Positions 5,035 to 61,797 of a stretch of DNA of 64,000 nucleotides are shown in pieces (position 1 is the first letter of the stretch; each line of letters starts with the position of its first letter). The notes under the pieces are model-generated. The model was not told the DNA's origin, did not search any database, and worked only from the letters and a program-made list of their open reading frames with translations. The position numbers and the translations under genes were made by a program. The stretch comes from an uncultured Candidatus Binatia bacterium (GTDB taxonomy: Bacteria > Desulfobacterota > Binatia > UBA9968 > CAXXLF01): assembly GCA_965218425.1 (NCBI GenBank), contig OZ244621.1, positions 3,904,001-3,968,000 of the forward strand, given 5' to 3'.

Positions 5035-5997
5035 ATGCTATCCCCAAAAGATCTCAGCGGAGTATTGGGAATGATGCCGTCCTTTGCCACTGAAGATGCG
5101 GTGGACATTCGTGCTACCCAAACCATTGCCGTTGACAACCTCAAAGAAGGCGTGGACCGAATTATCAAAGACGGCATTGGTCTCATCGCCACCACTGGCA
5201 CCTATGGCGAATGCTACAACCTACTCTTCGAGGAATTCAAAACCCTCACGGTAGCCACTGTGCAGAGCGTCAAGAAGCGAGTTCCCCTTTTTATTGGTTG
5301 CACGAGCCCCAACCCACGCGAGGTGGTGCAGAAAATGAACTTCGTGAAAGACTCCGGGGCCGATGGAGTCCTTCTGGGCGTGCCGTATTACGAGACCCTC
5401 CCGGTTCCCGATGCCATTCAATTCTACCATGACATCGCAGAACTGTTCCCAACGCTAAATATCTTGATATACCACAACCCGGACAATCATCATTTTACGA
5501 TGCCCGTAGCAGCCTTCAAAGAGCTCACAAAAAACCCCACCATCATCGGCATGAAGGACAGCCACAGGACCACTGCGGCCTTTATGAACCTGCAGCGCAT
5601 CATCAAGGGTAAAATCAGTCACTTCGTCAACCAATCCCAACTCTATCCCTATTACAAAATGGGCGCGGTGGGATGTTGGTCTACGGACGCTTGGATGGGA
5701 CCATGGCCGCTGCTCCACCTCATAAGTCTCCTTGGGCACGGGGACGAGGAACAGGCCCAGCAAGTCCTCGCTGAAATCGTGGGCGAAGGGGCTGGTGGTA
5801 AGCCAAGACCCGGTGAGGGCACCAAACGTCCGCAACAGTATTCCGATTACTGCAAGGTGGGCCCCACCCGGGTTCCGTTCCTCCACTTTCCCGAAGCGCA
5901 AATAGAGAAGGCAAAGAGACAAGCGGCCCACTGGAAGAAATTGTGTGACAAATACCGCCCCCTGGTGGAAGCAGAGAGAGGCCGTCCCGCGGCGTAA
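5035..5997 (+). CDS. DapA/NAL-family aldolase, NahE/PhdJ (benzylidenepyruvate hydratase-aldolase)-like
   Basis: GTYGEC, KRVPLFIG, GADGVLLGVP, IYHNP, Schiff-base GMKDS; NahE-type N-terminal insertion; RBS AGGAGG. Confidence 0.82.
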   Translation: MLSPKDLSGVLGMMPSFATEDAVDIRATQTIAVDNLKEGVDRIIKDGIGLIATTGTYGECYNLLFEEFKTLTVATVQSVKKRVPLFIGCTSPNPREVVQKMNFVKDSGADGVLLGVPYYETLPVPDAIQFYHDIAELFPTLNILIYHNPDNHHFTMPVAAFKELTKNPTIIGMKDSHRTTAAFMNLQRIIKGKISHFVNQSQLYPYYKMGAVGCWSTDAWMGPWPLLHLISLLGHGDEEQAQQVLAEIVGEGAGGKPRPGEGTKRPQQYSDYCKVGPTRVPFLHFPEAQIEKAKRQAAHWKKLCDKYRPLVEAERGRPAA

Positions 5998-6012
5998 ATT
6001 GTACGGGCATCG

Positions 6013-6049
6013 CGCTCCCCCGTGCCGCTTTTCCGGGTACGGGGGGCGA
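6013..6049 (+). other. GC-rich intergenic hairpin (mRNA stabiliser/attenuator or REP)
   Basis: CGCTCCCCCGTGCC ... GGTACGGGGGGCG complementary arms. Confidence 0.4.
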
Positions 6050-6078
6050 GTCTGGACTGAGTCCAATAGGAAAGAGAG

Positions 6079-7101
6079 ATGGAAACCACCTTCTTCGGTA
6101 ACGCCATTGGTGAGGCCTATAAGCTCGGCAAACAAGAACAGGAGCGGCGAAAAAACTCGCCGGTGCTTGTGAAGTGGCCGGACATCCAAAGGCAACTCGC
6201 TGATAGCAAACATGTTTACGTGATCGATCCGCGGTTAGGCTTCAACAATAGGACCCACCGGCTGTGGTATGACCGGATACCGCCGGAAAGCGAAGACGGC
6301 CAGGAATGGAAGTACATGGGCCACCGCCACACCGTGGAGGCCGTCATTTATTTTCTCAAAGGTCACGGCCATAGTATCATCGACGGCGTTCGTTACGACT
6401 GGGAAGCGGGTGACCTGCTCTCCGTGCCCATGTTCTCATGGCATCGGCACATCAATGACGGTAAGGAGGAAGTCCTCCGCATCGCATCCACCACCAACCC
6501 TCTTTCCATTTCTCTGGGTCAGGCAGTGTACGAAGACGAGCGGCATCCCGAGTTCTGGGTGTTCGCCCAGGAAGGCGAGGACGCCCAAAAAACCTTGATC
6601 CCGGGCGGAGCCGGCGATGCCGGCACGGTGGATGGATCAACGGATACTGGAGCAGCGAAGCTCTACGCTGAACAGGTGGGCTTCGCCATGAAGGAGGAAA
6701 AACTGCGACGCGCGAGCAAGGTGTTGGTTAAAAAGGACGACGTTAAACCGCAACCCACCGCCATGGGCAACCTGGCCTACGTCGTAGACCCCCGCATCGG
6801 TTTCCACTCCAAGGCACTGGCCGTGGTGGCGGCGGAAATTCCCCCTGGCAAGCGATCGGGAGCCCACCGCCACCTGTACGATGAGATTGATCTCGTGGAA
6901 AAGGGGCAAGGACGGATCGTAGTGAACGATAAGGAGTACGAGTTCAGCGCAGGGGATGTCCTCTCAATCCCAGTCTTCGCCTGGCATCAATACTTCAATA
7001 CCGGCAAAAAGCCGTTGCGGATCGTTGGCATCAGCACCAGACCGGCACTGGAAAACCTGGGTCTGGTTCTAACACACCAGGGGGAGCTGGCGGACCATTA
7101 A
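6079..7101 (+). CDS. Bicupin protein (gentisate-dioxygenase-like fold), both domains with HxH..E..H sites
   Basis: GHRHTVEA...PMFSWHRH and AHRHLYDE...PVFAWHQY. Confidence 0.85.
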   Translation: METTFFGNAIGEAYKLGKQEQERRKNSPVLVKWPDIQRQLADSKHVYVIDPRLGFNNRTHRLWYDRIPPESEDGQEWKYMGHRHTVEAVIYFLKGHGHSIIDGVRYDWEAGDLLSVPMFSWHRHINDGKEEVLRIASTTNPLSISLGQAVYEDERHPEFWVFAQEGEDAQKTLIPGGAGDAGTVDGSTDTGAAKLYAEQVGFAMKEEKLRRASKVLVKKDDVKPQPTAMGNLAYVVDPRIGFHSKALAVVAAEIPPGKRSGAHRHLYDEIDLVEKGQGRIVVNDKEYEFSAGDVLSIPVFAWHQYFNTGKKPLRIVGISTRPALENLGLVLTHQGELADH

Positions 7102-7179
7102 ACAGCGCCATCGACAGGAACGGCAATCTACGGTTTCCACCCCCCTTGGACCCGATTGATCCGAGTGCCCCAGCAAACC

Positions 7180-8697
7180 ATGGCTCATCACGAACACGCA
7201 AACCACAAGCACACCCATGACTCGGAACATGACCATGGCGGGGACCACGAGCACCATGGGGACCATGACCACATTGATCTGACCAACGCCACGAAGCTGC
7301 GCAGCATTGGCATCGATATCGGGTCAGCTACGTCCCACTTCGTTGTATCAGACATCTTCGTGGGAAAGCGCGATCCTGTGTTGGCGCAGAAGCCCGAGGT
7401 GCTAAAACGGCAACTGGTCTACCAATCCCCTATCCTGTTTACGCCCTTTAGCGACCGGACCACCATCGATGCAAAAGAGTTGGAACGATTTCTAGTGGAT
7501 CAGTGCGCTTTGGCTAATTTAAATCTTGAAGATATGGACACGGGCGCCTTGATCTGTACAGGGGAGGCAGCCCGCAAAGAGAATGCGGGAGCTATCAGCG
7601 AGCGTCTCTCCATGATGAGTGGGAAGTTTGTATGCGCTACGGCGGGTCATCATCTGGAGGCCGTGCTGGGCGCCTACGGTTCCGGCTCGATCATGCTTAG
7701 CAAGGCTGTGCCGGGGCACGTGGTCTCCCTTGATACGGGCGGTGGGACGGCCAAGCGGACCCTCATGTACGACGGCAAGGTCCTTCATACATCCGCGCTA
7801 AACATCGGATCCCGGCTTATTGCGTGGGACCAGCACGGCAGGGTGAACCACTTGGACCACGCAGGAGCTTTGGTGGCGAGAGAAATTGGCCTGGAACCGA
7901 GATTAGGTGAGAGCCTCAACGAAAGCCATCAACAAGCCATCGCCGAACGAATGGCGGACTGTCTCATTGAGTTTATTGGCTTCGAACCCATGGGCGACCT
8001 TGCTCAGGACCTTTTTTTGACGGAGACCCCTCCTCCACCTCTTTCCTCCCAGTTTTCTCTCACGGTGGTGGGAGGGCTGTCGGAGTACTTCTACGGGCGA
8101 GAGACGTCCCCAAAGGGTGATCTGGGCCTGTGGATAAGCCAGGCCCTGCGCAAGAAGCTCCGCCAACGTATCCCGGAGAGTGCTATTTTAACGCCTGAAA
8201 ATGGAATTCGGGCAACGGTCATTGGAGCCGGGCAGTTCAGCATGCAGGTGAGCGGTGAAACCATCTGGACGGACTCGAACCTAAAGCCGCCGTTGCGCAA
8301 TATTCCGGTTTATACCGTTCCCCTAGACTGGACCGACCTCCAACCCCAATCAGTCCATAGGATTTTAACCAATGTCATGGCGAGGGTGGATCCCCAGGAG
8401 ATCTGTAGTCTTGCCTTTAGCAAAGCCCCTTACTTCGGATACGGCATCGTATACAAGCTCGCCGAAGCCCTTGCCTATTCGCTCCAGCACTTGGAACGGA
8501 AACAAGGTCTTGTGTTTGTGTTCCACGAAAACTTCGGACGTGCGGCGGGAATCACTTTTTCCCGATTCATGCCGGGTCTTCCGGTTCTGTGCGTTGATGA
8601 AATAGATGTGGGAGACCTGGATTACCTGGACATCGGCGAACCTCCTGAAGGAGATGAGTTCCTTCCAGTGGTGGTGAAGAGCCTCGTTTTTTCGTAA
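7180..8697 (+). CDS. eutA: EutA-like ASKHA-fold ATPase with His-rich N-terminal tail (orphan, no eutBC in window)
   Basis: GIDIGSATSH, YQSPILFTP, TGEAARKENA, GKFVCATAG, LDTGGGT, IRATVIGAG, GDLDYLDIG..PVVVKSLVF; 13 His in first 31 aa; start set at ATG 7180. Confidence 0.88.
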   Translation: MAHHEHANHKHTHDSEHDHGGDHEHHGDHDHIDLTNATKLRSIGIDIGSATSHFVVSDIFVGKRDPVLAQKPEVLKRQLVYQSPILFTPFSDRTTIDAKELERFLVDQCALANLNLEDMDTGALICTGEAARKENAGAISERLSMMSGKFVCATAGHHLEAVLGAYGSGSIMLSKAVPGHVVSLDTGGGTAKRTLMYDGKVLHTSALNIGSRLIAWDQHGRVNHLDHAGALVAREIGLEPRLGESLNESHQQAIAERMADCLIEFIGFEPMGDLAQDLFLTETPPPPLSSQFSLTVVGGLSEYFYGRETSPKGDLGLWISQALRKKLRQRIPESAILTPENGIRATVIGAGQFSMQVSGETIWTDSNLKPPLRNIPVYTVPLDWTDLQPQSVHRILTNVMARVDPQEICSLAFSKAPYFGYGIVYKLAEALAYSLQHLERKQGLVFVFHENFGRAAGITFSRFMPGLPVLCVDEIDVGDLDYLDIGEPPEGDEFLPVVVKSLVFS

Positions 8698-9971: not shown

Positions 9972-10925
9972 CTACACACCCGGCAGGGCGGCAGCCTCGG
10001 GATGCAAGAGAGTATTGAAGTCATACTTCGTAGGTGTGACTCCAAACTGATGAGCGAATGACATCATGGCTTCCAGCGAACGCACGTTGTTATCCACGTT
10101 ATAAGACCAGTAGTTCTCTCCCATGACCGCTCGCTGCTCGTCCATGAGGGCGGCTGCCCACGAAATGGTCAGGACCTCGGGGTCAGACCCGTAGATGCGG
10201 TTGAAGGCAACATCACGTGCCTGGCGGTACGCCTTCAGCAGGGCCACCGGCGCCTCTGGATGCTTGTTCACAAACTCCTGGGTCAACGACACCATGTGGC
10301 TGATGGGGAAGATGCCTGTTGCCTTAAAGTAGTTCTGTTCTTCCGTCTTGTAATCCCGAAAGAGGCGACGCACCCGTGGGTCGCGCCGGCTAACGGAGGG
10401 CAGGACGTTGGGGTCGATTACCGCATCCACCTCACCCTCCACCAACATGTTGTCCAGGGCGGCGTCGGCGGGCCTGGAAACCTTTGGCACGGCCTCGACC
10501 TTGATGCCTGGGGCCCAGCCATTCGCCTCTCGTCCCATCATAAACCAGTTGATCTTGGTGAGATCCACTTTGTAATAATTAAGCAGGGCGCCCCGGGCCC
10601 AGATACCGGCGGTACTGCTGACAAACACCCGCTTGCCCTCCAGGTCTTTTGGAGACTCAATCCCCGAACCGCTGTTCACATAGATATAAGCCAGGCGGAA
10701 TTTTCGGTTCGGGAACGCAGGTATGGATACATAGGGATGATCGCCCTTTGCTTTGGTTTGCATGAGTCCGCCAAAGCTCGCGTCCCATGCATCGATGAAC
10801 TCGGCCCCACGGAAGTTGCTGATCTCCAGGTCGAAGCCCTCAACTTTCACGGTCCCATCGACAAAGGGCCGGTTGGTATCGACCTCAGGTTCACGGAAAC
10901 CAAGTCGTAGCTTGGGGTTAGCCAT
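9972..10925 (-). CDS. 4,5-dihydroxyphthalate decarboxylase (OphC/Pht5)-like PBP2-fold protein
   Basis: DGTVKVEG, IPAFPNRKFR, DLEGKRV, EQNYFKATGIFPISH; no signal peptide. Confidence 0.75.
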   Translation of the reverse strand: MANPKLRLGFREPEVDTNRPFVDGTVKVEGFDLEISNFRGAEFIDAWDASFGGLMQTKAKGDHPYVSIPAFPNRKFRLAYIYVNSGSGIESPKDLEGKRVFVSSTAGIWARGALLNYYKVDLTKINWFMMGREANGWAPGIKVEAVPKVSRPADAALDNMLVEGEVDAVIDPNVLPSVSRRDPRVRRLFRDYKTEEQNYFKATGIFPISHMVSLTQEFVNKHPEAPVALLKAYRQARDVAFNRIYGSDPEVLTISWAAALMDEQRAVMGENYWSYNVDNNVRSLEAMMSFAHQFGVTPTKYDFNTLLHPEAAALPGV

Positions 10926-17982: not shown

Positions 17983-19083
17983 TTACTTCTGCGTACAGAG
18001 GGGATGGTAGGGCATCTGGCACTTTGCTCCTGCTTTGGCAAGCGCCGCCTCAAAGTCCGGATGGATATTGGTATCCTCATCCTCATATTCGATCTGGTCA
18101 CCACCCTCTTTGACGCTTTTGTATACGTAAGCTTTGCCACCGGCCTTGGGTTTATCGCTCCCCCACCCAATGGCTAAAAATAGAACCGGCTCATTGCCGG
18201 TATTAAAATGCTCATGGAACCAGGCCTCGGGAGGAACAAACATGCTCCCCGGGCCCCAATCGATGCGCTCCACAGGCTTCCCCTCTAGCCACATGAGAGA
18301 GTAGCCCTGGCCGCGCAGAATTACGATATGAATTCCCGGTCCGTGCCGGTGGGCCTTCTTGTAGGTCCCCACAGGCCAGGAAGAACTGTGGGACTTGATT
18401 GTATTGTTGACCAAACAAAAGACTGTGCTCTTGGTCCCCTTGCCCCTCGTTTCTCCGCCACCAACCATGGCGCAGCTTTTCACGTCCGGCACAAAGTTCG
18501 TCTCCCAGCGAGACTGATTGGCTAATTGGTCTTTCATTTGAAAGTAGTTTGCCTCGCCGGTGAATCGATCTCGAAACACGAACGGGTTGTCAAAGACAAA
18601 TTCATGGTTGTTGAATGTGTCCAGTACTCGGGGGGCGCTTGTCATGGCCACATACCGGACGGGCTCACCACCGGATACGTTGAAGTGTTGATGCCAGGCG
18701 TTCATTGGAATCGCAAAAAAGCTCCCCTCTTGCCACTCAAAACTCTGCTTCTTGTTCTCGTCCAACCAGACGCTTGTGGCTCCCTGGCCCTTGAGGATAT
18801 AGATGCTCTCCTCAAAGAGATGTTTGTGGGGTTTCAGGGATTTCCCGGGAGGAATTTCACAGATATAAGTGTCGTTAAATCCCCCAGTCCCCTCCAGGTT
18901 AACGAAGGTCGCAAGCCCATCGCCGCTCGATTTCCAAGGTGTGAGCTCTACGTCCAATAGATTTTTGATGAAATATCCCCGAATGGTTGGCAACCCTTCC
19001 GACTCTTTCCATCGTTCGTAGGGAGATTTATAGGCGATAGCCTCCGTGTTGTATTCATCCACTTTCAAATTTGGTTTTGCCAT
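17983..19083 (-). CDS. Bicupin protein (SPYExW-EGLP subfamily)
   Basis: SPYERWKESEGLP, EIPPG..KPHKHLFEE, WHQHFN, WETNFVPD, AHRHGPG, FHEHFNTG, GGDQIEYEDED. Confidence 0.85.
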   Translation of the reverse strand: MAKPNLKVDEYNTEAIAYKSPYERWKESEGLPTIRGYFIKNLLDVELTPWKSSGDGLATFVNLEGTGGFNDTYICEIPPGKSLKPHKHLFEESIYILKGQGATSVWLDENKKQSFEWQEGSFFAIPMNAWHQHFNVSGGEPVRYVAMTSAPRVLDTFNNHEFVFDNPFVFRDRFTGEANYFQMKDQLANQSRWETNFVPDVKSCAMVGGGETRGKGTKSTVFCLVNNTIKSHSSSWPVGTYKKAHRHGPGIHIVILRGQGYSLMWLEGKPVERIDWGPGSMFVPPEAWFHEHFNTGNEPVLFLAIGWGSDKPKAGGKAYVYKSVKEGGDQIEYEDEDTNIHPDFEAALAKAGAKCQMPYHPLCTQK

Positions 19084-28314: not shown

Positions 28315-29493
28315 CTAGGCTTTCTGTGTGCAGTGAGGAGAGACGTGACCCATGTTGCAAGGGACTCCGCCCTTTGCCAGGTCGGCTTCAAAGTCGCGAT
28401 GAATCCCGGGGTCCTCATCCTGTATGGTGATCACGTCTTCCCCACCCCATTTGGCACCGGTTCCATAGTCACCCGAAACTGTGTAAACGTAAGCGCCGCC
28501 GCCCTTCTTTGGCTTCTCGCTCCCCCAGCCGACCGCCAGATGAAGCAGCGGCTCCGGCCCGGTATTGAAATGCTGGTGCCACCACATTTCAGGCGGAACG
28601 AATATGGAGCCCGGACCGTAGTCCACACGTACCACTGGGCCCCCCTGTGGCCACATCAAGGTGTAACCACGGCTTGTAAGAATAATGATATGAAGCCCCG
28701 GACCGTGACGATGGGCATTGAGATAAGTGCCGATGGGCCATTCGGCAGAGTGGGACTTCATGGTGCTGTTGACCAGGTCAAATACCACTGACGTTCCTCT
28801 CACTCCCCTGGGTCCCTTCCCTTTGGGATCATCGGCCCTGGGAGTCACTTCCCTAACATCAGAAACAAAATTGGTCTCCATGTGGAGTGCAGTCCCACCG
28901 TGAGTCGTGGTTGGGGTTTTGGTCTTGAAATAGTCCTTCTCTCCCTTGAACCGATCGCTGAACACATAGGGATTGTTAAATACGAAATCCAGGTCCTTGA
29001 ACGTGTTGATTACCCGCGGCGCCGCCGTCATCCCCACATACCGCGCAGGCTCCGTCCCCGATCCGTTGTGGTGCTGGTACCAAGCATTGGGCGGTATGGC
29101 GAAGAAACTCCGCTCCCCCCACTCAAAGGTCACCTTCTTTTTCTCATCCGTCCACACCGTCGTGGCCCCATGCCCCTTGAGAATAAAAGTGTTATCCTCG
29201 TAGATATGCCGAACGGGCTTTAGCGACTTGCCCGGTGGGATCTCACAAACGTAACTGTCGGTGAACCCTTCGCTCCCCTCCAGGTTGATGAAGATCCCGG
29301 ACCCGCCCCGTGTTTCCCACGGGTAGAGTTTCTGGGTGTAGAGATTGTCCACGCCCCAACCTCGCAACGTAGGCAATCCCTCCTGCTCTTTCCACATCTC
29401 GTAGGGTGACTTGTATCCCCTGCCTGTTTGACTATCCCAATAGGGTTTCTTGTCTCCGCCGTTTCCTTCAAAGGCAGCCAATGGTTCCGTCAT
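28315..29493 (-). CDS. Bicupin protein (SPYExW-EGLP subfamily), copy B
   Basis: Same motifs as 26096-27277; RBS GGAGG. Confidence 0.85.
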   Translation of the reverse strand: MTEPLAAFEGNGGDKKPYWDSQTGRGYKSPYEMWKEQEGLPTLRGWGVDNLYTQKLYPWETRGGSGIFINLEGSEGFTDSYVCEIPPGKSLKPVRHIYEDNTFILKGHGATTVWTDEKKKVTFEWGERSFFAIPPNAWYQHHNGSGTEPARYVGMTAAPRVINTFKDLDFVFNNPYVFSDRFKGEKDYFKTKTPTTTHGGTALHMETNFVSDVREVTPRADDPKGKGPRGVRGTSVVFDLVNSTMKSHSAEWPIGTYLNAHRHGPGLHIIILTSRGYTLMWPQGGPVVRVDYGPGSIFVPPEMWWHQHFNTGPEPLLHLAVGWGSEKPKKGGGAYVYTVSGDYGTGAKWGGEDVITIQDEDPGIHRDFEADLAKGGVPCNMGHVSPHCTQKA

Positions 29494-34400: not shown

Positions 34401-35260
34401 ATCCCGTTCCTCATTTTGATCAGCCTTTATTACCCTCACTACCGGGTCCGGCTTTTCGTCGCTCGCATAAGCAGAGGTCTAATTTTGGTATCGAGTTTCC
34501 AGTACTTCTCCAGACTCACAACCATGTAATCGGCGTCCTGTTTGGGCACCGTAAATTCCCGCAGCTTTTTCTTCGATGGAGTATCGATCCGAAGCGACGG
34601 ATAGCCGATGACCTCCTCCACTGCGGTCTGCCCGTCTCGAGAAAGCAGCCGGTTCATGAATACCTGCGCGGCGTTGGGATGGGGAGCCGGGTTCATCATC
34701 AAGGCTTGCCGGCCTCCTGAGGTCACTCCATAGCCTTCTTTCATTTGCTTCGGATTCACAATCTCCACAGGCAAACCCTGTTCCCGTGCGCGGTCGACGT
34801 CTCTCAAGGTGGGAAATAGCAGGATTGCATACCGACCTCGCCCCAGCCAGTCGATCATTTGTCGCATATCACGCGAGAAAGTGATGTCCATCTCACCGTA
34901 GAGTTGTTTCAGAAACGGGGGGGCCTAGCTGTTTGTTAACATACAGATACTTCACGTTCCCCGAGCCGGGTCCACTGCCCCTGATATCGCGGCTGACGAT
35001 CTTCCCGCGCCATTTAGGGTTCAGTAAGTCGCGGTAAGACGTCAACTTTGTTGGATCGACCAAATCGGTATTGACGGCGATGTTCGTGGTGGTGGCCATG
35101 GCAAACATGAGAAGGTACTTTTCCCCCTTGTCCGCAAACCAGTGCTTGCCTTCGAACCATTGACTTGTGTTTTTGACTTCTGGAAGCACCAAAGCCGACT
35201 TTAGGGATTGGAAGGCGCTCTGTGCTCTCAGGCTTCGAAAGAGGCGCCCACCTGACATTA

Positions 35261-46811: not shown

Positions 46812-48370
46812 CTAGCGCATTTTATCCAGCCACGCGTGGTTTAATCCTGCGCCCCAGGGGCGGAACGCTCCTCCGGAATCCGTCGTGAATCCCTTGACGT
46901 AAGTCCGCAGGGTAAAAAACCGTGGCACATAACCCACAGGAATGAAAGGCAGATCCTCACCGACTTGGGTCAAGATCTGTTTGAATTGGGCTTTGCGTTT
47001 CGTAGGATTCAGCTCAGTCTCCGCCTTTTTTACCAGGTCCTCCACTTCTCTGTCACAGTATGCAGCCACATTGGCGATCCGCCTTTGGGGGTTTACGCAT
47101 GTCAGGTCTGGCCCGTAAACCATGGTGGGATCCGGATCATAGCCGCCGCCGAAAAACATAAAAGAGTAGTCACCTTTACGCTGGCGATCGGTGTAGCTTC
47201 CATAGTCCAACACATCGAGAGTGACCTTCAATCCAATCTTTTTGAGCTGGGCTTGGAGCACGGTTGCCTCAATTGCCTGGTCCTCCCCCTGCCGGAGCAT
47301 GATCGTGAGAGTTTTTCCCTTATAACCTGACTTCTGGACAAGGGATTTCGCTTTTTTGAGATCGCAAGAGGGTGACGGTACTCCTTCAATATACCAGGTA
47401 TGATCCTTTGGATACTTCTGATCGGTGGTCTCGCCAAACCCGAAGTAGGCGGCGCGCAGAATCTCCTTCTTGTTCATGGCGTGGGCCACTGCCTGGCGTA
47501 GCTCCTTACTGTTGAAGGGAGGATCCGCCACGTTAAAATAGAGACGCCGGAAGCCCGCGTAGGGAGCCTTCACAATGTCGATGCCTTTGATCTTCCCATT
47601 GGAAACAGCCCTGACCCACTCGTAGGGGGACCGCTCCACGATGTCCACATCACCTGAGCGAAGTGCCGTGAAACGCACCGTGGAATTGGCAATGGGCCGC
47701 AGAATCACCCTGTCCACATAGGCTTTATGGCCCCAGTAGTCGTCAAAACGGTCAAAGACCATCCGCTGTTTTGACTTCCATTCCACGAATTTGAAGGGTC
47801 CCGTCCCCGGAGGAAATGTGTCGGGTCTCATGACACCCTCCTTGAGAGATTCCTTGGGGATCACCGAAAATGCTGAGATGTTAGTGAGAGTGGTAAGGAA
47901 TGCCGGACTGGCCTTTTTGAGAGAGAGCTTTAGGGTGTATTTGTCAGGTGTTTCCACTGATTCAACTAGACTTAGCGGGTTAATCCGTGGACCCCATTTT
48001 TCGGATTCAGAGAGTAGTCGATGGCATACTTTGCGTCCTCGGCCGCCATCTCCCGGCCATCGTGGAACTTGACCCCCTTACGCAGGTGAAAGGTGATTTG
48101 CCTGCCATCCTTGGACACATCCCAGGACTCCGCCAGATAGGGTTGAATGTTTCCCTTCAAATCGATTCCGAGGAGCGGCTCGAACATTAAGTCACGTATG
48201 GATCTATCAGTGGACCTGGTCCGCACCAAAGGATTCATTAACGTCAAATCCTTCCTGGTGGCCATGGCAAGGGTACCACCCCGCTTGGGTTGATCGGCGG
48301 CGCTTGTAACTGGCAGTACCATCCCCCCCAACAAGGCGATGGCCAGCGTAATAGTCAGTACGCGTTTCAT
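46812..48370 (-). pseudogene. Peptide/nickel-type (family 5) ABC SBP, 1-bp deletion frameshift
   Basis: Signal peptide, PKRGGTL, PYLAESW, LRKGVKFHDG; adding one base near 47974 restores TRLSLVESVETPDKY..GTGPF. Confidence 0.85.
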
Positions 48371-56329: not shown

Positions 56330-57610
56330 CTACAGGCGGACCTCAGCCTCCAAGTCCTTGGAGTGATCCTTCCACTCTTTGGAATTGGGTAGGACTCCGT
56401 TATAGGCAACGATCCGAAACCGATTGGCGTTAGGCTCGCGTACGACATTGCCGGGTTCCCGGCCCTCCATGAGGTCGTTGATTGCTTTAACCATAACCTT
56501 GCGTGCCGCTACGATCGCCATATCCATGGATGTGAGATGTTCCATGCAACGGTCCTGTACAGGACCCTGCCCTTCTGTGGCACAGAGATCCTGGATTACA
56601 AAGTCTATGCCGATGCCGGTGTAGCTCTGATTCTTCATGGCCTCTCTATCCTGCTGATACCGATTGGCCTTGTTGCGCGCCGGCTTATAATCCCGCGTTC
56701 GGTCACTAGAGCCGCGACTTGACCACGCTACGTCAACAGGTTTGTCACGGTTGAAAATGAAGGTATATTTCCAATGGTTCGTATCATCGATGGGCACGTG
56801 CCAATTGACCATGTAACCGTCTATCCCGCGTGGTACTCCCGGGAAGGCAGTAAAGTTAGGCATCACAAAGTCGGTCAAGTAGAGTTGATACTTGTCGTCT
56901 CCCATATCACGGCGAATTTTATAGCTCCTGACACCAATCCCGGTCAGTTCGGCGTCTGCCGCCTCATACTCTGCTGCCGATCCACGACCCCTAATCTGTT
57001 CCTCGGCGGGAAGCACGGCAGCGCCGACGTTCCCTCCAATGCCCCGGTTCATGCGGTTATAGTGCAAAAATGACAGATGAGATAGATCGATGTTGCCTTC
57101 GTTGGCCTGCAAATAGTTGCACTGGTGCAAGAGCTTTGTAGCAGAACGGAATTTCCCGGGACCGATCAGAAATTCATAGTTGGGGAACAGAGGAGGCTCC
57201 CCAGGCCCCAGGTATGCGAATATGGTCCCTGCCCGCTCCTCACAGGGATAGGCCGGGTGACGGATGGCCTCACGGTGTTCCCCCCCTCCAGGCTCGCCGG
57301 GCTGATCCAGACAACGCCCGTGAATGTCATAGAGCCAACCATGATAAATGCACCTCAACCCACCGTCTTGCACCCGACCGTAACTCAAATCCGCGCCCCT
57401 GTGGGAGCAGTGAATATCCAACAAACCCGGCCGACCCTGGTCATCCCGGAATAGGACTAGATCCTCCCCTAGGAGCCGAATGGGCAAGGGAGCCCCACCC
57501 GGAGGCAGTTCCTCTGAGAGAGCCGCGGGCTGCCAGTAGCGCCGCATTAGCTCCCCACAAGGTGTCCCGCGATCCGTTTGAGTTAGTAGCTCGGTCTCGT
57601 GCGTGGTCAT
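56330..57610 (-). CDS. Rieske non-heme iron oxygenase alpha subunit (phthalate 4,5-dioxygenase/LigX group)
   Basis: CSHRG..CIYHGW; EGNIDLSHLSFLH; QD..EGQG. Confidence 0.92.
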   Translation of the reverse strand: MTTHETELLTQTDRGTPCGELMRRYWQPAALSEELPPGGAPLPIRLLGEDLVLFRDDQGRPGLLDIHCSHRGADLSYGRVQDGGLRCIYHGWLYDIHGRCLDQPGEPGGGEHREAIRHPAYPCEERAGTIFAYLGPGEPPLFPNYEFLIGPGKFRSATKLLHQCNYLQANEGNIDLSHLSFLHYNRMNRGIGGNVGAAVLPAEEQIRGRGSAAEYEAADAELTGIGVRSYKIRRDMGDDKYQLYLTDFVMPNFTAFPGVPRGIDGYMVNWHVPIDDTNHWKYTFIFNRDKPVDVAWSSRGSSDRTRDYKPARNKANRYQQDREAMKNQSYTGIGIDFVIQDLCATEGQGPVQDRCMEHLTSMDMAIVAARKVMVKAINDLMEGREPGNVVREPNANRFRIVAYNGVLPNSKEWKDHSKDLEAEVRL

Positions 57611-60504: not shown

Positions 60505-61797
60505 CTAATCTCTTACGTCGGCTTCCAACTCTTTCGCGCGAACTTTCCAATGTTTTGTCATGGGAACAAGCTCGTGTGTGGCGATGATCCGAAAACGCTT
60601 GCGCACACGCTCCCCAATCACATTTGCCGGTTCTCCACCTTCCTGGACATCTCTAATTGCCTTCAACATGACCTGCCGCGCGACGCTAATGGCCCTATCC
60701 ATAGAGACAAGGTGCTCCTTCGACCGATCTTGAATAGGACCCATCCCTTCTACAGCGCAAAGGTCCTGCGCCTGGAAGTTCATACCTATACCCGTATAAC
60801 TCTCGCTAATCATCGAATCCCTATCCTGTTGGTAGCGATTGGCTTTGTTGCGGATTGGCTTATAATCCGGCGTCATATCAGCACGACTTCTTCTTAGACG
60901 GTCCTTATCGATGGCATTTTTTCTACCGAATAGAAAGGTATACTTCCAATGGTGTGTATCGTCGATCGGCACGTGCCAATTGACCGAGTACCCGCCCATC
61001 GCGTATCCGCTTCCGGGAAAGGCTGTGAAGTTGGGAAGGACAAAGTCCGTGATATACAAGTGGTATTGGTCTGGTCCCATGTCACGCCGAATCTTGTAAC
61101 TCCTCACTCCGAAACCCGTCAATTCCGCATCGTAGGTTTCGACTGTTGGGGCGGCACCCCGACCGCACAAACCTTCGACGCGCTTTCCTTCAGCGTCTCT
61201 ATGACGTTCCTCGCCGTCGCCAATTCCTCTGTTTCTGGAATTATAATGTAGAAAAGTTAAATGAGAGAGATCGATATTGCCCTCATTGCCCTGCAAATAG
61301 TTGCATTCATGAAAGAGCTTGATGGCAAAGACATGGTCTTGCGGTACACTAAGAAATTCATAGTTGGGAAACACCGTCGGCTCTCCAGGACCCAGATACG
61401 CAAAAATGACTCCTGCTCGCTCCACACAAGGATACGCCGGATGACGAATGGACTCCCGGTGTTCGCCTCCTCGAGGCTCGCCCGGCTGATCCAGACAACG
61501 CCCGTGAATGTCATAGAGCCAACCATGATAAATGCACCTCAACCCACCGTCTTCCACCCGACCGTAGCTCAGATCAGCACCCCGGTGAGAACAGTGAAGC
61601 TCCAGAAGCCCGGGACGCCCCTGATCGTCTCGAAACAGAACGAGATCCTCACCCAGAAGCCGAACGGGCAACGGGGCCCCTCCCAAAGCAAGCTCCTCGG
61701 AAAGCGCCGCGGGCTGCCAGTACTGCCGCATCAACTCCCCACACGGGGTCCCACGATCCGTACGGGTCAAAAGCTCGCTCTCCTGTCTGGTCATCAT
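60505..61797 (-). CDS. Rieske oxygenase alpha subunit (paralog of 56330-57610)
   Basis: CSHRG..CIYHGW; EGNIDLSHLTFLH; QD..EGMG. Confidence 0.92.
   Translation of the reverse strand: MMTRQESELLTRTDRGTPCGELMRQYWQPAALSEELALGGAPLPVRLLGEDLVLFRDDQGRPGLLELHCSHRGADLSYGRVEDGGLRCIYHGWLYDIHGRCLDQPGEPRGGEHRESIRHPAYPCVERAGVIFAYLGPGEPTVFPNYEFLSVPQDHVFAIKLFHECNYLQGNEGNIDLSHLTFLHYNSRNRGIGDGEERHRDAEGKRVEGLCGRGAAPTVETYDAELTGFGVRSYKIRRDMGPDQYHLYITDFVLPNFTAFPGSGYAMGGYSVNWHVPIDDTHHWKYTFLFGRKNAIDKDRLRRSRADMTPDYKPIRNKANRYQQDRDSMISESYTGIGMNFQAQDLCAVEGMGPIQDRSKEHLVSMDRAISVARQVMLKAIRDVQEGGEPANVIGERVRKRFRIIATHELVPMTKHWKVRAKELEADVRD

What the first reader, a model, noticed from the sequence alone, without database searches (positions are those of the whole stretch)
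5035..8697. Orphan His-tailed EutA-like ATPase co-transcribed with a bicupin: candidate metal-site maturase/reactivase for non-B12 enzymes
Seen: a full-length EutA homolog with both ASKHA phosphate motifs follows a bicupin and a NahE-like aldolase. It has 13 His in its first 31 residues, and the window has no eutBC, microcompartment or cobalamin gene. Known: EutA reactivates AdoCbl-dependent ethanolamine ammonia-lyase, and His-rich tails mark metal chaperones such as HypB, UreE and CooJ. Inference: this ATPase is repurposed to load, exchange or repair metal centres of the many cupins, especially the SPYExW-EGLP bicupins at 17983, 26096, 28315 and 63082, forming an undescribed ATP-dependent cupin activation or catalysis system. 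This is the best candidate for a new system here.
Basis: partly seen in the sequence, partly recalled or inferred. Interest (0 to 1): 0.8.

Follow-up and report, generated by a model that had tools for sequence, protein, structure and literature searches.

The report
Clade-matched ATPase helper for bicupin enzyme
A histidine-tailed relative of the vitamin-B12-enzyme repair factor EutA sits in a bacterium that has no such B12 enzyme, and it travels across genomes with one particular family of double-barrel (bicupin) metal enzymes, so it likely uses ATP to load or exchange that enzyme's metal, possibly nickel.

Summary
In detail: aldolase, bicupin and full-length EutA-like gene lie in a row, with 13 His in the first 31 residues. 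The gene is not an orphan. The genome (97% complete) has nine EutA-like paralogues and no eutB or eutC, and 7 of the 9 follow a cupin gene. All non-eutBC relatives fall on one side of a 100/100 branch. No eutBC was found in 160 related loci.

The window protein belongs to a sub-clade tied to the bicupin family next door ('W-type'): 7 adjacent W-type and 0 SPYExW-type, against 0 and 85 in the other clade. The two occur together in 12 of 31 relatives and are both missing in 18.

Nickel genes flank 24 of 158 loci, all in the other clade. This genome has a NikR-headed metal transporter but no urease, hydrogenase, LarA or CODH.

Best reading: an ATP-driven metal loader/exchanger for the bicupin. 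It rests on genomic context only; the complex predictor was unavailable. The scan noted the general EutA-bicupin pairing before on other genomes.

The parts
7180..8697 (+). EutA-like ASKHA-fold ATPase, 505 aa, non-eutBC branch, W sub-clade
   Evidence: PF06277 E 4e-103; below all four NCBIfam EutA cut-offs; AlphaFold model pLDDT 86.8 matches ASKHA folds; tree. Alternative TTG start at 7156.
7180..7272 (+). His/Asp/Glu-rich N-terminal tail (13 His in 31 aa), predicted disordered
   Evidence: pLDDT under 50 for residues 1-30
7309..7326 (+). Phosphate-1 motif GIDIGS (residues 44-49)
   Evidence: G44, I45, D46, G48 shared by eutBC-linked and non-eutBC sets
7732..7749 (+). Phosphate-2 motif DTGGGT (residues 185-190)
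   Evidence: D185, G187-G189, T190 invariant in alignment A1 and shared with canonical EutA
6079..7101 (+). W-type bicupin, 340 aa, likely client; fold nearest to gentisate/salicylate 1,2-dioxygenases
   Evidence: 14-20% identity to the solved dioxygenases; below the TIGR02272 cut-off
6322..6444 (+). N-domain metal site H82, H84, H122 (E87 also invariant)
   Evidence: Invariant or at least 90% conserved in 94 homologues; ligand role inferred from the cupin motif
6865..6987 (+). C-domain metal site H263, H265, E269, H303 (3-His-1-Glu type)
   Evidence: Invariant or at least 90% conserved in 94 homologues; ligand role inferred
5035..5997 (+). NahE/PhdJ-like hydratase-aldolase, 320 aa; likely acts on a ring-cleavage product
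   Evidence: kept in the same-genus genome and a metagenome contig (L087, L167); a NahE-like gene plus a DsbA-fold NahD-like gene lie near the pair in an alphaproteobacterial locus (L088)

Best explanation
This gene encodes an actin-fold ATPase of a large EutA-related branch that is found beside cupin genes instead of eutBC, and it likely acts as a dedicated ATP-driven helper that loads or exchanges the metal in the W-type bicupin encoded just upstream. Shown: fold, intact nucleotide motifs, absence of EutBC, and clade-specific pairing with the W-type bicupin family. Inferred: like EutA on ethanolamine ammonia-lyase, it binds the client, uses an ATP/ADP cycle to open it, lets out a wrong or oxidised metal and lets the right one in, with the disordered His tail holding the incoming ion. 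Inferred with less confidence: the metal is nickel (or cobalt), and the bicupin cleaves an aromatic ring whose product the NahE-like aldolase then splits.
For: No eutB/eutC in this genome or eutB in any of 31 related genomes, all 31 of which hold EutA-like genes; no diol dehydratase hit (no positive control) and no methylmalonyl-CoA mutase. 7 of 9 paralogues directly follow a cupin gene. 160 related loci: 0 with EutB/EutC, while the same test found them in 9 of 9 control loci; of 102 genes with 1.5 kb on both sides, 59 have an adjacent cupin and 81 one within 6 kb. Tree: 50 non-eutBC against 9 eutBC rows, 100/100; W clade 99/94. Clade matching: W clade 7 adjacent W-type, 0 SPYExW-type; other clade 0 and 85. 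Profile: W cupin and W-clade ATPase both present in 12 of 31 genomes, both not found in 18, 1 discordant where the cupin is cut by a contig end; in 6 of the 12 they are not adjacent; genus-level 6/0/0/4, p 0.005. In a second genus sample, EutA-like and SPYExW-type genes occur in the same 5 of 151 genomes. Distances of 23 ATPase/W-cupin pairs correlate, rho 0.87. Metal link: NicO, HupE/UreJ, NikR or CobW within 6 kb of 24 of 158 loci; NixA/NicO plus NikR beside the ATPase in Phyllobacterium, Paraburkholderia and Limnohabitans records; two such ATPases carry 47 and 50 His; eutBC-linked EutA have 0-1 His before the first motif (8 counted of 9). This genome has nikR heading a ZnuABC-type transporter 12 kb from another paralogue and no urease, NiFe hydrogenase, LarA, CODH/HCP or ureohydrolase. 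A review says the bicupin MncA traps its metal at folding (PMC4192464, passages), a reason for needing a remodeller.
Against: All evidence is genomic context; there is no biochemistry. Nickel genes lie near 0 of 13 W-clade loci and are concentrated in one sub-clade of the other branch. This genome has no NicO or CbiM gene, and nikR was found in only 12 of 31 relatives, all of which have EutA-likes. The His tail is missing in 14 of 54 close homologues. Some clusters already hold a CobW-type GTPase that could do the metal insertion. 5 of 6 W-type and 57 of 62 SPYExW-type bicupins in this genome have no adjacent ATPase. A 23-member clade has no cupin within 6 kb. The sister W sub-clade lies beside heme-oxygenase-like diiron genes in 5 of 8 loci examined.
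Confidence: 0.55

Rival explanations
1. Activase-type remodeller: the ATPase binds the bicupin and releases a trapped product or dead-end inhibitor; the metal stays, and the His tail is accessory.
For: Closest to what EutA does, removing a spent cofactor with ATP (PMC5821096, passages). Explains clade-specific pairing, tail-less members and the presence of a separate CobW GTPase.
Against: Does not explain NixA/NicO/NikR neighbours and 47-50 His tails in sister clades.
Confidence: 0.17
2. Two-component ATP-dependent enzyme: the ASKHA protein phosphorylates or otherwise activates a small substrate and the cupin finishes the reaction, as in oxoprolinase or acetone-carboxylase-type pairs (analogy recalled).
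For: ASKHA folds include many small-molecule kinases. Residues conserved only in the non-eutBC branch (C152, H157, K192, E302, Q356) could form a substrate site. Gene-for-gene pairing fits subunits.
Against: Cupins outnumber ATPases 68 to 9 in this genome, which suits a catalytic helper better than a stoichiometric subunit. The full EutA domain set is kept. The bicupin folds like stand-alone dioxygenases.
Confidence: 0.13
3. Same pathway, different client: the ATPase serves another metalloenzyme of the cluster (heme-oxygenase-like diiron protein, amidohydrolase) or acts as a general metal store, and the cupin link only reflects shared clusters.
For: Heme-oxygenase-like genes beside 5 of 8 loci of the sister W sub-clade; paralogue L017 lies beside an amidohydrolase with no cupin; a 23-member clade has no cupin neighbour.
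Against: The cupin is the only neighbour shared across clades and phyla (88 of 160 loci against 17 for Rieske oxygenases), and cupin type switches exactly with ATPase clade.
Confidence: 0.13
4. Ordinary EutA or a reactivase of some other adenosylcobalamin enzyme.
For: Pfam EutA match over the whole profile; databases name it EutA.
Against: No eutB, eutC or mutase in the genome; the three B12-binding hits read as a methionine synthase-sized protein and two CxxxCxxC radical SAM proteins (names inferred); separate branch.
Confidence: 0.02

Closest known systems
EutA, ATP-dependent reactivating factor of adenosylcobalamin-dependent ethanolamine ammonia-lyase EutBC (Pfam PF06277)
   Same: Whole-length homology (about 28-34% identity), both phosphate motifs and most glycine motifs; likely the same ATP-driven remodelling principle.
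   Different: Separate 100/100 branch; never found with eutBC in the loci examined; paired with bicupins; many paralogues per genome; His-rich tails; diagnostic changes such as S49/T, C152, H157/P, K192/N.
Diol dehydratase reactivase DdrAB (PDB 2d0o)
   Same: ASKHA fold match, Z 11.8, rmsd 4.2 over 246 residues; ATP-dependent cofactor exchange (recalled).
   Different: A middling hit among many ASKHA proteins; no DdrB-like partner gene seen; no dehydratase hit in the genome (without positive control).
Nickel insertion NTPases and chaperones HypB, UreG/UreE, CooC/CooJ, COG0523 GTPases
   Same: His-rich tails, NikR and nickel permease neighbours in sister clades, nucleotide-driven metal delivery (PMC4192464 passages for HypB; others recalled).
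   Different: Those are P-loop NTPases; this is an actin fold. Proposed client is a cupin, not urease, hydrogenase or CODH.
Gentisate / salicylate 1,2-dioxygenase bicupins (PDB 3bu7, 2phd), with NahE/PhdJ hydratase-aldolases downstream
   Same: Best fold and sequence matches of the bicupin; HxH..H site in the N-domain; NahE/PhdJ-like neighbour.
   Different: 14-20% identity, 52 bits against a cut-off of 442; both domains keep metal ligands, the C-domain with an added Glu; known members need no ATPase (recalled).

Membership tests
EutA reactivase (functional family) | Whole-length match to PF06277 | tested here: met
   346 bits, profile 2-474 of 475
EutA reactivase (functional family) | Reaches an NCBIfam EutA equivalog cut-off | tested here: not met
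   284/598, 258/769, 224/799, 168/952 bits
EutA reactivase (functional family) | eutB and eutC in the locus or genome | tested here: not met
   0 hits in own genome; eutB 0 of 31 genomes; 0 of 160 loci
EutA reactivase (functional family) | Groups with eutBC-linked EutA in a tree | tested here: not met
   9 eutBC-linked rows lie on the other side of a 100/100 branch; the control set is small
EutA reactivase (functional family) | ATP-dependent exchange of damaged cobalamin on EutBC | not testable with these tools
   Needs an assay
ASKHA ATPase superfamily | Actin-like fold with two phosphate motifs | tested here: met
   Foldseek and VIA-align top hits are all ASKHA, best Z 17.3, rmsd 3.9, 263 residues; motifs
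ASKHA ATPase superfamily | ATP hydrolysis | not testable with these tools
   Inferred from motifs only
Nickel metallochaperone (works-like) | His-rich metal-binding tail | tested here: met
   13 of 31 residues; binding itself not tested; tail missing in 14 of 54 homologues
Nickel metallochaperone (works-like) | Linkage to nickel uptake or sensing genes | tested here: inconclusive
   24 of 158 loci overall, 0 of 13 W-clade loci; nikR in own genome but 2.1 Mb away
Nickel metallochaperone (HypB/UreG/CooC family) | P-loop NTPase fold | tested here: not met
   Fold is ASKHA; no P-loop Pfam match
Gentisate 1,2-dioxygenase family (for the bicupin) | Reaches TIGR02272 cut-off | tested here: not met
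   52.3 against 442.1 bits
Gentisate 1,2-dioxygenase family (for the bicupin) | Bicupin fold with HxH..H metal site | tested here: met
   TM about 0.62-0.65 to 3bu7 and 2phd; H82, H84, H122 conserved
Gentisate 1,2-dioxygenase family (for the bicupin) | Fe(II)-dependent ring cleavage | not testable with these tools
   Needs an assay

The most novel reading that the evidence does not exclude
An actin-fold nickel insertase/exchanger: a whole branch of proteins mislabelled EutA metallates a very large, unstudied family of nickel-dependent bicupin enzymes that break down aromatic compounds, with each ATPase clade matched to its own cupin clade. In this genome these cupins (68 of the two types) would be the reason for keeping a NikR-controlled metal importer without any classical nickel enzyme.
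Probability: 0.35. Interest if true: 0.87.

Novelty: new variant of a known kind. Interest (0 to 1): 0.68.

Why it matters
EutA-type reactivases are known only as helpers of B12 enzymes, and cupin oxygenases are not known to need an ATPase (both from my own knowledge; nine searches of the held library found no paper on this pairing). If the helper reading holds, thousands of 'EutA' annotations are wrong, a new kind of metal-centre maturation exists, and a bicupin family with more than 60 copies in one genome may have stayed uncharacterised because it is inactive when expressed alone. The clade matching gives a sharp test: cognate against non-cognate pairs from one genome. Cultured carriers of the sister system exist (Phyllobacterium, Sinorhizobium, Paraburkholderia, Limnohabitans records).

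Tried and rejected
Phylum-wide search: 0 of 60 genomes held a full-length EutA-like gene, only short matches in frames of about 415 aa (probably FtsA, not checked), so it gave no neighbourhoods. PDB sequence searches: no solved EutA; the LuxU hit is a His-tag artefact. Atlas search of the C-terminal domain: no usable hit; that domain's fold was not tested alone. Atlas search of the bicupin: only uncharacterised cupin clusters. Plasmid search for W-type cupins: one distant hit only. Idea that EutA-likes avoid true gentisate-dioxygenase-type cupins: 0 of 16 against 6 of 68 adjacent, p 0.59, not supported. Invariant C126 as a metal ligand: exopolyphosphatase has Cys at the same place, rejected. 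Promoter and terminator scan at chance level. RNA runs X1 and X2: small share, contigs only. NiSOD and diol dehydratase searches had no positive control; acireductone dioxygenase and glyoxalase I were not searched, so other nickel enzymes are not fully excluded. Literature searches (listings only, except passages of PMC5821096 and PMC4192464) found nothing on the pairing; the Mori 2004 and Tsoy 2009 papers were not held, and Tsoy 2009 might mention eutA without eutBC. No supplements were read.
Full report
Observation. The window lies in a single-contig genome of 4.46 Mb, 97% complete; its same-genus relative is titled Candidatus Binatia. The three genes are as described: a NahE/PhdJ-like aldolase (5035-5997), a bicupin (6079-7101) and a 505-residue EutA-like protein (7180-8697; PF06277 E 4e-103), with gaps of 81 and 78 bases. 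The tail has 13 His in 31 residues, the densest such run among 3726 long ORFs of the genome, and is predicted disordered. The model (pLDDT 86.8) matches ASKHA folds, and both phosphate motifs are shared with true EutA. Co-transcription is plausible but not shown.

It is not EutA in function. The genome has no eutB or eutC and no methylmalonyl-CoA mutase. eutB was not found in any of 31 related genomes, yet all 31 hold two to nine EutA-like genes. The protein stays far below all four NCBIfam EutA cut-offs. In an IQ-TREE tree of 59 rows, 50 non-eutBC proteins are separated from 9 eutBC-linked ones by a 100/100 branch; the control set is small and came from the plasmid collection. None of 160 related loci holds EutB or EutC, while the same test found them in all 9 control loci.

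It is not an orphan. The genome has nine paralogues. Seven directly follow a cupin gene: five an SPYExW-type ('S') bicupin, one a pair of single cupins, and the window copy a different family that I call W-type. Among 102 related genes with enough flank, 59 have an adjacent cupin and 81 one within 6 kb. In 151 genomes of the genus of a Paraburkholderia record, EutA-like and S-type genes occur in the same five genomes, two copies each; these five are 97% alike in the cupin, so they may be one mobile cluster.

The window protein lies in a clade (99/94) whose 13 loci have 7 adjacent W-type and no S-type bicupin; the other 169 loci have 85 adjacent S-type and no W-type. Matching contig lengths between the two homologue tables gave 11 shared lengths among 45 close ATPase homologues, against about 1.2 per offset by chance, and further matches appear, including Chloroflexota. 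In 31 relatives, W cupins occur in 13 genomes and W-clade ATPases in 12 of them; both are not found in 18, which all keep other EutA-likes; the one exception has its cupin cut by a contig end. In 6 of the 12 the two genes are not adjacent, in G062 by more than 400 kb. Kin are not independent: at genus level the table is 6/0/0/4 (p 0.005). Distances of 23 pairs correlate (rho 0.87), which linkage alone could also give. So the likely client is the bicupin next door and its five W-type paralogues, not the S-type genes at 17983, 26096 and 28315.

The client. The W bicupin folds like gentisate and salicylate 1,2-dioxygenases at 14-20% identity and keeps two metal sites, H82/H84/H122 and H263/H265/E269/H303. 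Its aldolase neighbour recurs in the same-genus genome, and an alphaproteobacterial locus adds a NahE-like and a NahD-like gene and UbiD decarboxylases. This suggests cleavage of a hydroxylated aromatic ring followed by retro-aldol splitting; the substrate is unknown.

Metal link. Nickel/cobalt permeases (PF03824, a family that also holds efflux proteins), HupE/UreJ, NikR or CobW lie within 6 kb of 24 of 158 loci. In Phyllobacterium, Paraburkholderia and Limnohabitans records a permease and nikR flank the ATPase, and two of these ATPases carry 47 and 50 His, mostly in a long C-terminal tail. This genome has nikR heading a ZnuABC-type transporter 12 kb from another paralogue and lacks urease, NiFe hydrogenase, LarA, CODH/HCP and ureohydrolases. 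Against this: no nickel gene lies near any W-clade locus, 14 of 54 close homologues lack the tail, nikR was found in only 12 of 31 relatives, and some clusters already have a CobW GTPase.

Mechanism. Most likely (0.55) the ATPase binds the bicupin and uses ATP to open it so that the metal can be loaded or swapped, with the tail holding the ion. This follows from EutA's known ATP-dependent removal of a damaged cofactor (PMC5821096, passages) and from the report that a bicupin can trap its metal at folding (PMC4192464, passages). Rivals are release of a trapped product (0.17), a two-component ATP-dependent enzyme (0.13), another client such as the heme-oxygenase-like proteins beside the sister sub-clade (0.13), and ordinary EutA (0.02). 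Binding is untested; the complex predictor was not available.

Novelty. Nine searches of the held library found no description of the pairing; two older papers could not be read. This scan's own notes recorded the general EutA-bicupin pairing on at least eight other windows, and one noted a nickel/cobalt permease; I saw no note on clade-matched pairing or on NikR without classical nickel enzymes. I class it as a new variant of a known kind: a reactivase-type ATPase with a new class of client.

Noticed in passing
window:3890-4909 (+); copy at L019:12526-13464: Integrase-core transposase directly upstream of the aldolase, with a near-identical copy elsewhere in the genome; absent at this place in the same-genus locus L087.
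   Followed up: no
window:26096-27277 and 28315-29493 (-): Two SPYExW-type bicupins nearly identical over their first 190 residues, flanking a gentisate-dioxygenase-type bicupin: a recent duplication or gene conversion.
   Followed up: no
window:19110-19805 (-): No Pfam hit, but phmmer E 3e-38 to a heme-oxygenase-like diiron protein from L075; lies just upstream of the SPYExW bicupin at 17983.
   Followed up: partly
G000 whole genome: Huge cupin expansion: 62 SPYExW-type, 6 W-type and 16 gentisate-dioxygenase-type bicupins.
   Followed up: partly
L292:6845-10106 (G000:1801844-1805105): nikR heading a ZnuABC-type metal ABC transporter in a genome with no classical nickel enzyme found.
   Followed up: partly
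L013:6992-8617 and 22 related loci: A conserved Binatia clade of EutA-likes with no cupin nearby, sitting among hisI/hisG, TPR and MoxR genes; has short His patches at both ends.
   Followed up: partly
L018:7085-8589 (G000:1738887-1740286): One EutA-like paralogue is split into two frames (frameshift or assembly error).
   Followed up: no
L019:7080-8627: Very divergent paralogue (branch 2.4) with GVHIGS in place of GIDIGS, behind two single-domain cupins; possibly without ATPase activity.
   Followed up: no
L286:1831-3666 and L289:4317-6194: EutA-likes of 612 and 626 aa with 47-50 His, mostly in a C-terminal tail, beside NixA/NicO, NikR and CobW genes in cultured genera.
   Followed up: partly
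window:51663-52490, 9972-10925, 56330-57610, 60505-61797: PanB-like, 4,5-dihydroxyphthalate-decarboxylase-like (name recalled) and LigXa-type Rieske genes; the same set recurs in the Paraburkholderia cluster (L285), hinting at a shared unknown aromatic pathway.
   Followed up: no
window:13349-16378, 34439-35258, 46812-48370: Several transporter genes appear broken into pieces (pseudogenes or assembly errors).
   Followed up: no
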